Shown: one piece after another, positions 1,677 through 47,036 of the stretch
How positions within the stretch are numbered: position 1 is the first letter of the stretch
How the letters are laid out: every line of letters starts with the position of its first letter
NCBI GenBank assembly: GCA_964016885.1
Contig: OZ024747.1
Coordinates: 56,668,001-56,732,000, forward strand
Length of the DNA: 64,000 nt
Source of the DNA: Eledone cirrhosa
Taxonomy: Eukaryota
Reading direction: 5' to 3'
Position numbers and translations under genes: made by a program
The notes under the pieces: generated by a model
The model's input: the letters and a program-made list of their open reading frames with translations, nothing else
What the model was told of the DNA's origin: nothing
Database searches by the model: none

Positions 1677-2607
<931 letters not shown>

Positions 2608-3557
2608 ACGGCGATGAATTAGTTTTGCGAGGTTTTTTATATGAAATTGTGTGTCGAAACAAATATTGTTATACTTGGGGAGGGTCATATTTGTGTAATA
2701 TTGCCAGAATTAATAACAGAACACACTCACTGTTTGGTTGGTTTTCGCTTTTCTCTTCTGTGTCTTTTATATCGGTAACCTAATTTACTCGGTCCTCAAT
2801 GTTGCCATTGACTGACCGACGGTCAAAAATAATACAGATACAATATGGACACAAACACATATATATAGTTTATCATAAATCTTTCGTTGCACATCTGCAA
2901 CATCGTCAGTGGTGCTATTATTTCCTCCAGTTGTATTGTATGTCTACGCCATTTTTATTCAGTCTGTCCATATATTTATTTATTTATTTGCTTGTTTGTT
3001 TATTTTATTTTGTCTTCTTTGCGCATGCGTTTGCGTGTGTGTATAGTGTTTTGTTTGATGTGTGATGTGTGTTCATGATTGGGTGACTAGTGTGTGTTTT
3101 TGTGCTTGTGTATGTATTTATTTATTTATTTATTTATTTATTTTATTTTATTTACTTATTTATACTTCTCTTAGGTCAGTGTTGTTTGTTTGGGTGTTGT
3201 TGTTATTCCATTCATTCTTTCTGTTTAGTCTTGGTCTTCTAAGTTCTATTTCACTGGCCTCTCTGATTTGCCTATCTGCTGGGTCATTTCTATGTTTAGA
3301 TATTATTCTAATTTCGATGTTGCAGATGTGCAACGAAAGATTTATGATAAACTATATATATGTGTTTGTGTCCATATTGTATCTGTATTATTTTTGACCG
3401 TCGGTCAGTCAATGGCATCATTGAGGACCGAGTAAATTAGGTTACCGATATAAAAGACACAGAAGAGAAAAGCGAAAACCAACCAAACCGTGAGTGTGTT
3501 CTGTTATTAATTCTGGCAATATTACACAAATATGACCCTCCCCAAGTATAACAATAT
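2608..3557 (-). mobile_element. 5'-truncated Penelope-like element with inverted pseudo-LTR
   Basis: Minus 3313-3170 reads IRIISKHRNDPADRQIREASEIELRRPRLNRKNEW (GIY-YIG C-terminus); near-perfect inverted repeat 2663-2905 / 3315-3557; same family as 44585-45941; flanked by (TA)n. Confidence 0.85.
2870..2914 (-). ncRNA. Hammerhead-like motif in PLE pseudo-LTR (stems I/III uncertain)
   Basis: Minus strand: CTGACGA t gttgca gatg tgcaac GAAA; also at ~43250-43292. Confidence 0.5.
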
Positions 3558-41857: not shown

Positions 41858-42902
<1,045 letters not shown>

Positions 42903-43007
42903 ATATATATATATATATGTATATATATGTATGTATATATATATACATACATATATATATATATACATGTATGTAAATATATATATACATGTATATATAT
43001 ATATATA

Positions 43008-43539
43008 GTTTTGCGACGTTTTGATATGAAATTGTGTGTCGAAACAAATATTGTTATACTTGGGGAGGGTCATATTTGTGTAATAATATTGCCAGAATTA
43101 ATAACAGAACACACTCACTGTTTGGTTGGTTTTCGCTTCTGTGTCTTTTATATCGGTTAATTTAATTTATTCGGTCCTCAATGTTACCATTGACTGACCA
43201 ACGGTCAAAAATACAGATACAATATAGACACAAACACATATATATAGTCTAATAAAGTTCTTTCGTTGCACATCTGCAACATCGTCAGTGGTGCTATTAT
43301 GTTTCCTCCCGTTGTATTGTATGCCTACGCCATCTTTATTTAGTCTGTTTATTATTTATATATTTTAATTTTTTTTGTCTTCTCTGCGCATGCGTTTGTG
43401 TGTGTGTATAGGGTTTTGTTTGATGTGTGTTCGTGTTTGGGTGACTGTGTATTGGTTATTGTATTCTATCTTAGTTTACTAGTGTGTCATTATATGTGTT
43501 TGTTGTGATTGTGCTTGTGTATGTATTTATTTATTTATT
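43008..43539 (-). mobile_element. Inverted PLE pseudo-LTR
   Basis: Reverse complement of ~45495-45941; homologous to 2608-3140. Confidence 0.88.
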
Positions 43540-44578
43540 CAAGGAAAACCGTGATATTGTCGGAGAGAAGTGTGTACGTAATGATAACGGTGTACTTGCA
43601 CTCACTGATGCTGATAAGAAGATAGCTTGGAAGTGTCACTACGAGAGACTATTAAATGAGGAGAATAAGTGGGAAAAAGATAGTCTGCCCCAAATCGATC
43701 CAATAGAAGGACCAGCGGTGCAAGTTAAAGGTAGTATAATAAGTAAGGCAATCAAAGATATGAAGACAGGCCAAACAGCTGGGTCTTCGGAGATAGTTGC
43801 TGAGATATTGAAGGCATCTGGAATGGTGGGACATACTATGGTCACCCGTATAGTTAACCAAGTAATACAGAATGGGGTCATACCAAAAGACTGGCGTAGC
43901 AGCATCATCATTAACTGCTACAAGGGTAAAGGAGATGCTCTAGATAGAGGAAACTATAGAGGCATTAAGTTAATTGACCAGGTCATGAAGGTCACAGAAA
44001 GAGTTATAGCGCAACTAATCAGAGAGCGAATTGATCTAGATGAAATGCAGTTTGGGTTTGTGTCAGGTAAAAGTATCACAGATGCTCTTTTCCTTGTACG
44101 ACAACTACAAGAGAAGTACCTAGATAAAAGTATACTCCTCTACTTAGCTTTTGTAGACCTGGAAAAAGCCTTTGACAGAGTCTCCCGCTCCATTATCTGG
44201 TGGGCTCTTAGAAAACTAGGTGTAGATGAATGGCTTGTGAGAGCTATACAAGCTATGTATAATGAAATAGTCAGTAAGGTTAGAATTAACAATGAATATT
44301 GTGAAGAATTTAGTGTAAAAGTTGGTGTTCACCAAGGCTCTGTCCTTAGCCCCCTCCTATTTATTATTGCCCTTCAGACTATAACAGAGGAGTTCAAGAC
44401 CGGCTGCCCATGGGAACTCCTGTACGCAGATGATCTAACGATCATAGCTGAATCTATGGCTGAACTTGAAAAGAAATTCCAAACATGGAAGCATGGCCTA
44501 GAATCAAAAGGTCTTAAAGTTAACTTGTCTAAGACTAAAGTCCTAGTTTGTAGAAAGGAAAATAAGGCACAGGTACCC
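43540..44578 (+). mobile_element. RTE ORF fragment with uninterrupted RT core
   Basis: YKGKGD..NYRGIKL, QFGF, AFVDLEKAFDRV, GVHQGSVLSPLLF, LLYADD, GLKVNLSKTK; no endonuclease, no 3' tail. Confidence 0.93.
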
Positions 44579-44584
44579 CACCAT

Positions 44585-45934
44585 GAGGTGGCTCCAAATA
44601 CCTGATACTCAAAGACTCAGCAACGTCCAGTAGTGCTAAGTTTAATATTCTGATCGCAGACTTGGTACGAGTGATGAAGAACGTGTCCCGCATGTGCAAC
44701 CCAACAGAAATGGAAAGACACATCCAACACTTCATCAACCGCATGCAGTTCTCTGGCTACAACCAAAGAGACAGAATCAGAGTATACGAAGGAGCCACGG
44801 AGAAGTATAAGACCCTCATAGAACTGGACATGAAAGGAATTTGCCCATTATACAGGAGCAAATCATGGAATAGCTTAGATAGGACTAGACATAAGATAGG
44901 GAAAGCCGCCTCATGGTATGACAACCAGAGATACCAGAGTGTCATGTTTGTGGATGCTACCCCTGGAGGGAAATTAGATAACCAGTGTAGAAAAGCCCCG
45001 AGAAAGACCCACTTAAAGATTAAGGTGGTAGAAAAGCCAGGAACCACCATAAAATCCCTTATCAGAAAACCTACCCTTTTAAGAAAACCCACTGTACTAA
45101 TAGGAAATGTATTATATGTAAAGTAAACCCTCGGATAAACTGTAAAACTAGAAACGTGGTCTGTAGCATAAGATGTACAGAGGGTACTTGCAGAAACATG
45201 ACAACAACATACATAGGCAAGACAGCTCGTAGCATAGGTGAAAGGATAGACCAACACTGGGGTAACTAAAAGGACAAAAAAACGGTTCAGTACAATACGA
45301 ACATGCCAGATAACAACACAACGGTAACATAGACAACATAGAAATTAGAATAATATCTAAACATAGAAATTAACCAGCAGATAGGCAAATCAGAGAGGCC
45401 AGCGAAATAGAACTTAGAAGGCCAAAGCTAAACAGAAAAAATGAATGGAATAACAACAACACCCAAACAAACAACACTGACCTAAGAGAAGTATAAATAA
45501 ATAAATAAATACATACACAAGCACAATAACAACAAACACATATAAAGACACACTAGTAAACTAAGCTAGAATACAATAACCAATACACAGTCACCCAAAC
45601 ACGAACACACATCAAACAAAACACTATACACACACGCAAACGCATGCACAGAGAAGACAAAAAAAAAAATAAATAAATAAATAAACAGACTAAATAAAGA
45701 TGGCGTAGGCATACAATACAACAGGTGGAAACATAATAGCACCACTGACGATGTGTTTGTGTCTATATTGTATCTGTATTTCTGACCGTTGGTCAGTCAA
45801 TGGTAACATTGAGGACCGAATAAATTAAATTAACCGATATAAAAGACACAGAAGCGAAAACCAACCAAACAGTGAGTGTGTTCTGTTATTAATTCTGGCA
45901 ATATTATTACACAAATATGACCCTCCCCAAGTAT

Positions 45935-45941
<7 letters not shown>
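44585..45941 (+). mobile_element. Penelope-like element 3' part (RT thumb, Cys linker, GIY-YIG, pseudo-LTR), decayed
   Basis: SKYLILKDSA..MQFSGY..PLYRSKSW..SVMFVDATPGG..KVVEKPG; after frameshift CTNRKCIIC..NCKTRNVV..YIGKTARSIGERIDQH..RQIREASEI..LNRKNEW; stops present. Confidence 0.9.
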
Positions 45942-45975
<34 letters not shown>

Positions 45976-46554
45976 GATATATATATATGTATATTTGTAG
46001 AGGTTTTGTTTTTACTATGTCTATAATATATATATTTTTTTATTTCATTTTCTTATTGGCTATATCGTAGTCAGCATTGGTTTTTATTTTGTATATTAAT
46101 TTCCTTACCCCCCTTACATTTCATCACCGTTGCATTCTTGTATTGCCCTATATCCTTAATGCTTACTTCAAACAATGTGCCAGCGGCCATCAGGCCAACG
46201 GGTCAACACATATGGATACATGTGACAACTTAACTGAGATGGTGACAATAGCCGCTAAATTATAAGAAGCCCCCAGCTGTGATCTGACTGAAACCAAACC
46301 AAAAAAATGAATATGGCGGAATACCACTATGACAGAATTCGTGGTAGCATATAAGAAGGAATTGGGATATTATTCAACCACTCTCAGATGCGAGTCTATA
46401 TTTTAAAACATATCTCAGGAGCTTCCGACCCCAGGTTCGATCATTAGTAGATCATTCCTCGAGCTGATCGACAGTGAAACATATGTAATATGTAATAAAA
46501 TATGTATATGATAAAACATTGATTCTTTGTTCCCATATATTTTAATACTATGTA

Positions 46555-46646: not shown

Positions 46647-47036
46647 TATATTAATAAGAGGAATTCCAACTTTGTGTCTGATTTACTCGTTTTATTTACA
46701 ATCCTTTAAAATTTATAATGGTATTATAATGAAATAGTATGATAGAATATTAAATGTTAAGTGTTAATTGAACAAGTACTTTCATGCTTTCGCAATCTTC
46801 AGGTTCATAATGTGTGGTGACAGTCAAGTTTGCAATTTTCAACTGAAAATTGCAAACTTGACTGTCACCACAGAATATGAACCTCAAGATTGCGAAAGCA
46901 TGAAAGTACTTGTTCAATTAACACTAAACATTTAATATTCTATCACACTATTTCATTATAATACCATTATAAATTTTAAAGGATTGTAAATAAAACGAGT
47001 AAATCAGACAAAGTTAGAATTCCTCTTATTAATATA
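46647..47036. repeat. Fold-back palindrome, ~195-bp arms, 2-nt spacer
   Basis: Arms 46647-46841 / 46844-47036; (TA)n close by on both sides. Confidence 0.92.
46769..46807 (-). ncRNA. Minimal type I hammerhead ribozyme
   Basis: tgaac CTGAAGA t tgc gaaa gca t GAAA gtacT T gttca; mirror copy 46878-46916 has CTCAAGA. Confidence 0.85.

What the first reader, a model, noticed from the sequence alone, without database searches (positions are those of the whole stretch)
43008..45941. RTE-Penelope chimera: RTE RT core joined almost in frame to PLE thumb and GIY-YIG inside PLE inverted repeats
Seen: inverted pseudo-LTR (43008-43539), stop-free RTE RT core (43540-44578), PLE thumb/linker/GIY-YIG (44585-45480), pseudo-LTR (to 45941), all between (TA)n. 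The RTE piece lacks its own 3' tail, so it could not have primed its own insertion. The join lies just after RT motif KVNLSKTK, about where a PLE RT passes into its thumb. The RTE frame reads ..QVPHHEVA and the PLE frame starts SKYLILKDSA, sharing the T at 44593, so one extra base would give a continuous ORF. Inference: a template switch during PLE reverse transcription, possibly at aggtggc (RTE R-W-P versus PLE E-V-A codons), produced a cross-class domain swap. The PLE part now carries stops and frameshifts.
Basis: partly seen in the sequence, partly recalled or inferred. Interest (0 to 1): 0.75.

Follow-up and report, generated by a model that had tools for sequence, protein, structure and literature searches.

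The report
One-off LINE scrap inside inverted Penelope
One broken copy of a Penelope jumping gene carries a 1-kb piece of an unrelated jumping gene (an RTE LINE) where its two mirrored arms meet, likely picked up when the copying enzyme hopped between templates during insertion; no second copy was found, and it would not make a working hybrid enzyme.

Summary
The anatomy is real: inverted PLE arm, 1,040-nt RTE piece, PLE thumb/GIY-YIG and arm, between (TA)n. Raw reads from a separately listed sample cross the right junction. The domain-swap reading fails. No second copy of either junction was found. The proposed 'aggtggc' homology is in neither parent. The junction filler is a 14-nt inverted piece of the PLE itself (1 of 3000 shuffles matches as well), the mark of an ordinary PLE inversion junction. 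The join is out of frame and out of register: the RTE is cut before its PHD finger and RT motif 7, and the PLE resumes after its own motif 7. The two arms share one template, and all parts are equally old. Most likely a single PLE insertion folded back, jumped onto an RTE mRNA and rejoined the second arm (0.5). Rivals are trimmed target DNA kept between the arms (0.22) and a nested RTE later deleted (0.2). Other one-off RTE/PLE joins exist (L158, L332). The scan had no look-alike of this DNA. It works like L1 chimeric insertions. Interest is low.

The parts
42797..43007 (.). (TA)n target tract; it follows the (GAT)n tail of an older, unrelated RTE copy (41936-42798, about 81% to the family studied)
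43008..43047 (-). PLE 'tail': the first ~40 nt of the element's 5' region, on this arm only
43048..43539 (-). Inverted short PLE arm (pseudo-LTR, family positions 2914 to 2426), ending in the (TAAA)n tract next to a TATA
43539..44578 (+). RTE fragment, family positions 669-1708. RT core through motif 6. No APE, PHD finger, motif 7, thumb or tail. 1-nt overlap with the left arm
44579..44593 (-). Junction: 1 extra base plus a 14-nt inverted PLE piece (44580-44593 = family 1829 to 1816 antisense). 2-nt overlap with the PLE restart. GTACC is shared by the RTE end and the PLE antisense sequence just before the piece
44592..45496 (+). 5'-truncated PLE ORF from family position 1504: thumb, linker with CX4CxxC, GIY-YIG with CCHH. 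Two frameshifts and an in-frame stop
45496..45941 (+). Right PLE arm (3' pseudo-LTR) with a 43-nt deletion near 45750 and no tail
45939..45994 (.). (TA)n target tract

Best explanation
This is a non-coding inverted Penelope-like insertion, found only once, whose centre holds a 1,040-nt RTE fragment that was likely captured during the insertion itself, most likely by the PLE reverse transcriptase jumping onto an RTE mRNA. Inferred steps: (1) The PLE nicks (TA)n and copies its RNA from the 3' end back to family position 1504 (right arm and body). (2) The cDNA end folds back about 310 nt and copies 14 nt of itself, as at a normal inversion junction. (3) That end re-primes on a co-expressed RTE mRNA through about 5 nt of homology (GTACC, with a short slip) and copies RTE 1708 to 669. 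(4) The product is joined, with 1 nt of overlap, to the second arm from the same PLE template, which ends in the (TAAA)n tract. Shown: the parts, their coordinates in the parents, the inverted-PLE origin of the filler, a shared template for the two arms, equal ages, and no second copy found. Inferred: the order of events and the RNA nature of the RTE template. The product was likely dead on arrival: frames offset by one base, no APE, first Met at 43760, and RT motif 7 absent.
For: The filler matches PLE antisense 1816-1829 for 14 nt; 1 of 3000 shuffled fillers reached 14. It matches the family base, not this copy's later variant: 28 matches to the family form against 0 in the 80 position-ordered PLE regions. 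The arms are each other's nearest neighbours, of 153 and of 130 arms compared, and share a variant seen in 1 of 135 other arms. The tail on one arm only is the pattern of 34 of 37 inverted pairs and is described for single PLE insertion units (PMC3846280, PMC8557442, passages). PLE inversion centres often hold switched pieces: 12 of 49 head-to-head junctions have fillers of 6 nt or more (some are only alignment-edge effects), several have short PLE middle pieces (L175, L194, L207, L225), and L166 holds 25 nt of flanking host DNA. Only 1 of 20 RTE internal deletions has a filler of 6 nt or more. Short arms end in the same tract in 2 of 37 pairs. Ages do not differ: RTE 17/1040, arm differences 9/802, body 23/895; Fisher P = 0.43, 0.15 and 0.66. 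0 of 100 position-ordered RTE copies lie inside a PLE. There are 0 RTE-type tails at this TATA site in this orientation against 5,629 intact sites. No genomic donor was found within 100 kb either side, and none of the 29 closest copies carries the piece's private variants as a set.
Against: None of the 80 PLE regions showed two facing arms with more than 130 nt of non-PLE DNA between them, so the capture rate is unmeasured. Equal age, orientation, a 5-nt right homology and a 1-nt left overlap fit the rivals equally well. The left join sits exactly at a TATA, and this RTE does insert at short AT sites. L074 is an ordinary RTE copy truncated at 670 (found by a query anchored there). Deletions are common here: 19 of 100 RTE copies have internal ones, and in 13 of 100 the tail is not reached directly. 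The only foreign piece seen at an inversion centre (L166) was copied from DNA. Simple fold-back does not explain why the tail is on the short arm in 16 of 37 pairs. Gene conversion could have made the arms alike.
Confidence: 0.5

Rival explanations
1. Target retention. An RTE copy already sat between two (TA)n tracts. One PLE event primed at both tracts, and the trimmed RTE DNA was kept between the two cDNA ends, the right one after a 14-nt fold-back.
For: Both families use (TA)n, and 54 of 100 RTE copies have a TA-type 5' flank. Many PLE 5' ends join non-TA DNA. Single PLE ends join into RTE interiors with 6-7 nt of homology in L158 and L332. L166 captured flank DNA at its centre. This reading explains the shared template and the filler equally well.
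Against: It needs two cuts more than 2 kb apart in one event, which was not seen in 80 regions. The RTE piece is not measurably older than the arms. Two independent PLE insertions are disfavoured by the shared rare variant.
Confidence: 0.22
2. Nested insertion, then deletion. An ordinary inverted PLE (arms 2914 to 1816 and 1504 to 2914) received a 5'-truncated RTE at the TATA in its left arm. A microhomology-mediated deletion at GTACC later removed about 1.2 kb of RTE and about 0.6 kb of arm.
For: The 14-nt piece is collinear with the left arm, and a 312-nt arm offset is within the family range. The left join is at a plausible RTE target. Microhomology deletions are seen in 19 of 100 RTE copies; these may also be RT skips. 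Such deletions are known in LINEs (PMC2861651, passages).
Against: It needs two rare events plus a deletion that stops 14 nt short of the inversion point (about 1-2% by my estimate). 0 of 100 RTE copies are nested in a PLE. There are 0 tails against 5,629 intact sites. Only 1 of 20 deletions exceeds 1 kb.
Confidence: 0.2
3. A true cross-class domain swap: born in frame, then expressed or mobilised, and later broken.
For: The RTE piece is open, as in only 4 of 45 siblings. A 4-nt homology (TGGC) followed by a later 1-nt loss could have been in frame at birth (inference).
Against: No second copy was found. The substitution pattern is neutral. There is no APE or start region. RT motif 7 is missing from both sides. 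The required 1-nt loss at one site is about 0.5% likely at this copy's indel rate (2 in 904; my estimate).
Confidence: 0.02
4. Assembly artefact.
For: Contigs of sample S1 (X1-X3) show no cover over 44579-44622; the tool warns that a hole proves nothing. The left junction was not shown by reads.
Against: Raw reads of X18 (sample S16, another study) cover the filler at depth 20 and run into both sides. They may be copies of few molecules. A templated filler with an ancestral base is not what mis-assembly makes (inference).
Confidence: 0.02

Closest known systems
Inverted-repeat insertions of C-terminal EN+ Penelope-like elements, Neptune-type by motif (Arkhipova 2013, PMC3846280; Craig 2021, PMC8557442; passages read)
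   Same: Inverted 5'-truncated arm, a 30-40-nt tail on one end, a (TA)n target, and CX2-5CxxC plus CCHH motifs. Capture of unrelated DNA between pLTRs and template jumps are already proposed for these elements.
   Different: The captured DNA is a LINE RT fragment at the inversion point, behind a 14-nt fold-back piece. In the passages read, captures lie between direct or solo pLTRs or inside the ORF.
L1 chimeric insertions (U6/L1, 28S/L1, Alu/L1, mRNA/L1) made by template switching or twin priming (Law and Burns 2026, PMC13174262; abstract and passages read)
   Same: A foreign RNA piece joined in sense to the 5' end of a truncated retroelement, arriving at the same time, mostly as one-off events. 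Telling these from nested insertions needs orthologous sites.
   Different: The enzyme would be a PLE RT and the passenger an unrelated autonomous LINE. Timing is not shown here by orthologues.
RTE-clade non-LTR retrotransposon with a PHD finger (the parent of the fragment)
   Same: Single APE-RT ORF and a (GAT)n tail in sibling copies; about 98% identity to the family majority.
   Different: Only positions 669-1708 are present.

Membership tests
C-terminal EN+ PLE, Neptune-like (parent family) | Single ORF with RT followed by a C-terminal GIY-YIG | tested here: met
   Natural copy L007 has a 767-aa frame with a weak RVT_1 hit. The window's GIY-YIG hit is below cut-off, E = 0.043; the motifs were read directly.
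C-terminal EN+ PLE, Neptune-like (parent family) | CX2-5CxxC linker and CCHH inside the endonuclease (Hydra lacks CCHH) | tested here: met
   CX4CxxC, two Cys between the VVY and YIG motifs, and two His; definitions.
C-terminal EN+ PLE, Neptune-like (parent family) | pLTRs, tandem or inverted units, tail on one end, (TA)n target | tested here: met
C-terminal EN+ PLE, Neptune-like (parent family) | Placement in the Neptune clade by RT phylogeny | not tested
   No reference set of PLE RTs was on hand.
C-terminal EN+ PLE, Neptune-like (parent family) | Hammerhead ribozyme in the pLTR | tested here: inconclusive
   Rfam gave only TA-repeat miRNA look-alikes below gathering score. Minimal hammerheads can be missed.
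RTE-clade LINE (parent family) | APE plus RT in one ORF, short tandem-repeat tail | tested here: met
   The clade name rests on recalled features; no tree was built.
Mobile chimeric retrotransposon family (RTE RT with PLE endonuclease) | Several dispersed copies share the junction | tested here: not met
   1 of 40, 1 of 40, 1 of 43 and 1 of 40 scored matches span a junction, each time the window itself. The gap pattern gave 6 matches: the window and 5 in one C2 cluster with neither element at the match.
Mobile chimeric retrotransposon family (RTE RT with PLE endonuclease) | Continuous ORF with a complete RT, under purifying selection | tested here: not met
   Frame offset, PLE lesions, motif 7 missing, N/S 11/6.
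Template-switch chimeric retro-insertion (U6/L1 type) | Passenger in sense at the 5' end of the 3' element, without its own tail | tested here: met
Template-switch chimeric retro-insertion (U6/L1 type) | Both parts arrive together (the empty orthologous site lacks both) | not testable with these tools
   No relative of this genome is held. Ages are equal within error only.
Template-switch chimeric retro-insertion (U6/L1 type) | One target-site duplication around the whole unit | tested here: inconclusive
   Both flanks are (TA)n, so a duplication cannot be read.

The most novel reading that the evidence does not exclude
PLE reverse transcriptase regularly jumps onto the mRNAs of co-active, unrelated LINEs during integration. 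This leaves LINE-to-GIY-YIG fusions across the genome, a standing route to cross-class domain shuffling. This locus would record the steps: fold-back, jump, rejoin. L158 would be a second case: a full-length RTE joined in sense, and locally in frame, to the YIG half of the endonuclease.
Probability: 0.2. Interest if true: 0.5.

Novelty: new member of a known kind. Interest (0 to 1): 0.22.

Why it matters
As it stands it is a dead one-off. Its value is as a footprint of the poorly understood PLE integration reaction: the inversion centre is a site of repeated template switching that can take in foreign sequence. If jumps onto LINE mRNAs recur, they offer a testable route for the endonuclease exchanges that PLE phylogenies imply (discussed in PMC8557442, passages). 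It also warns annotators: a one-base-off junction between two high-copy families is expected now and then and does not show a domain swap.

Tried and rejected
Search for further copies of either junction: none found; DNA searches score only the best 40 candidates. The L158 junction was also found once, in 1 of 40 scored matches.

Hot spot for RTE tails at the PLE TATA site: 0 matches (exact pattern, one orientation). Local RTE donor within 100 kb either side: only 3' UTR scraps at 88% identity or more. Dating to separate the three origins: no power. One search was not de-duplicated and is superseded.

Reads: contigs of X1-X4 over 43400-44800 showed no listed piece across either junction. X1-X3 had a hole at 44579-44622. 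I used neither as evidence of absence. No RNA holder was listed.

Rfam found no hammerhead. A PDB search with the PLE ORF was uninformative, so the position of PLE motif 7 rests on recall.

Literature: 6 searches listed no report of an RTE/PLE chimera. Only open-access text is covered and no supplements were read; repeat libraries in supplements could hold such composites. PMC13282606, PMC8857657 and PMC5718144 (passages) added nothing specific. No structure, complex or protein-database search was run, as the product is not a real protein.

Full report
Observation. The element lies between two (TA)n tracts. Searches of the own genome show both parents are young multi-copy families: an exact PLE motif has 5,629 matches and an exact motif of this RTE subfamily has 244. 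In-script majority sequences from 29 copies each have intact frames over the parts studied. Against them the window reads: tail plus PLE arm antisense (family 2914 to 2426), RTE 669-1708, a 13-nt filler, and PLE 1504-2914. The PLE part has two frameshifts and an in-frame stop. Raw reads of X18, from a separately listed sample and study, cover the filler at depth 20 and run into both sides. They may be copies of few molecules. Contigs of X1-X3 do not show the junction, and the left junction was not shown by reads.

Copy number. In four DNA searches only the window itself spans a junction: 1 of 40, 1 of 40, 1 of 43 and 1 of 40 scored matches. A genome-wide gap pattern gave 6 matches: the window, and 5 in one cluster on C2 that carry neither element at the match. 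No chimeric family was found.

The junction. Positions 44580-44593 match, for 14 nt, the antisense of the PLE's own positions 1816-1829, about 310 nt inside the right part. One of 3000 shuffled fillers matched as well. The piece has the family base where this copy's body has since mutated. GTACC is shared by the RTE end and the PLE antisense sequence just before the piece. So the join is RTE, short inverted PLE, PLE sense: the form of a PLE inversion junction. The V-A codons that made the join look nearly in frame come from that piece.

Protein register. A natural RTE copy carries a PHD finger (25.2 bits, cut-off 24) right after the RVT_1 match, which stops at profile position 193 of 205 both there and in the window. 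Its FRYLG motif lies about 75 residues past the break. The PLE resumes about 30 residues after its LPVLD motif. Calling these two motifs 'motif 7' is recalled knowledge; the alignment to L1 ORF2p ends just past the break. A joined protein would therefore lack motif 7, the APE domain and the start region; the first Met is at 43760. Substitutions in the piece are 11 nonsynonymous to 6 synonymous, P = 0.29 against neutral. 4 of 45 sibling copies are open over the same interval.

Family background. I fetched 80 regions covering 99 of the first 100 listed PLE motif matches, and the first 100 of 244 RTE matches. Of 37 inverted PLE pairs (one a local duplicate), 34 have the tail on one arm only. That is the pattern here, in a second copy in this window (2605-3554), and in PMC3846280 and PMC8557442 (passages). 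The window's arms are each other's nearest neighbours and share a variant found in 1 of 135 other arms, so both came from one template, barring gene conversion. Inversion centres often hold extra pieces: 12 of 49 head-to-head junctions have fillers of 6 nt or more (some are alignment-edge effects), and L166 holds 25 nt of its own flank, inverted. None of the 80 regions had a large foreign centre. Among 100 RTE copies, none is nested in a PLE, one is joined head-to-head to a PLE end (L332), 19 have internal deletions, and 13 do not reach their tail directly. No RTE-type tail was found at the TATA where the left join falls. L158 is a full-length RTE joined in sense to a PLE 5' end through a 7-nt homology with one base lost. 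It is locally in frame with the YIG half of the endonuclease, broken upstream, and found once.

Age. Private substitutions are 17/1040 in the RTE piece and 23/895 in the body; the arms differ at 9 of 401 sites (9/802 per arm). Fisher P = 0.43, 0.15 and 0.66. Several of the 17 are lineage variants shared with L337 and L338. No donor copy was found nearby or among the 29 closest copies.

Mechanism. Three histories fit. (A) One PLE integration with fold-back, a jump onto RTE mRNA, and a join to the second arm: 0.5. (C) One PLE integration at two TA tracts that kept a trimmed, pre-existing RTE: 0.22. (B) A nested RTE in the left arm, later deleted to within 14 nt of the inversion point: 0.2. In A and C the filler is a normal product of PLE integration. 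B needs a nesting not seen in 100 copies, a large deletion and a near-coincidence. A's rate is unmeasured, and nothing here shows the template was RNA. The odds are my estimates. Functional domain swap and assembly artefact get 0.02 each.

Comparison. It works like an L1 chimeric insertion made by template switching (PMC13174262, abstract and passages), set inside a standard inverted PLE of Neptune-like motif type. Membership of that chimera class cannot be settled without the empty site. Membership of a mobile chimeric family was tested and not met. Six literature searches listed no RTE/PLE chimera; no supplements were read. The scan had no look-alike of this DNA; its notes on other one-off composites in this genome are unchecked.

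Verdict. A real one-off chimeric insertion, likely dead on arrival; a new member of a known kind. Interest 0.22.

Noticed in passing
L158 (G000:C1:5401081-5406381), junction near locus 1008: A full-length RTE of the same family is joined in sense to PLE position 2102 through a 7-nt homology. The RTE C-terminus runs in frame into the YIG half of the GIY-YIG domain. The RTE ORF is broken upstream. Found once in 40 scored matches.
   Followed up: partly
L332 = L036 (C3:198,127,393-198,132,093): A PLE 5' end is joined head-to-head, with a 6-nt overlap, to an RTE piece (1395-2722) that also lacks its tail.
   Followed up: partly
L166:3140-3175: 25 nt of the right-hand flank, from locus 5254, are copied in inverted orientation at the PLE inversion centre.
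   Followed up: partly
PLE family 5' half, e.g. L169, L175, L186: The PLE ORF carries a long asparagine-rich stretch, roughly 170 codons, N-terminal to the RT. This recalls the N-rich inserts of rotifer PLEs in PMC3846280, which lie at other positions. The tandem unit is about 4.15 kb.
   Followed up: no
RTE family, e.g. L104: A PHD finger is inserted inside the RT domain, between motif 6 and the FRYLG motif (Pfam PHD 25.2 bits).
   Followed up: partly
L049 near locus 665-680: An RTE 5' junction carries a short telomere-like CCCTAA run between (TA)n and the element.
   Followed up: no
L234:2170-4260: About 2.1 kb of unidentified DNA, with an internal repeat, is inserted in the N-rich part of a PLE, with a 6-nt overlap of family coordinates.
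   Followed up: no
window 2605-3554: A second, ordinary inverted insertion of the same PLE family, with the tail on one arm.
   Followed up: partly
window 46675-47010: A near-perfect palindrome: 167-nt arms, 97% complementary, 2 nt apart.
   Followed up: no
L018: RTE and PLE pieces are joined tail-to-tail with both 3' ends lost, which suggests post-insertion deletions do join these families.
   Followed up: no
L061-L065 (C2:252.43-252.52 Mb): Five near-identical 32-nt matches within 90 kb, an unidentified local repeat that resembles the junction pattern by chance.
   Followed up: no
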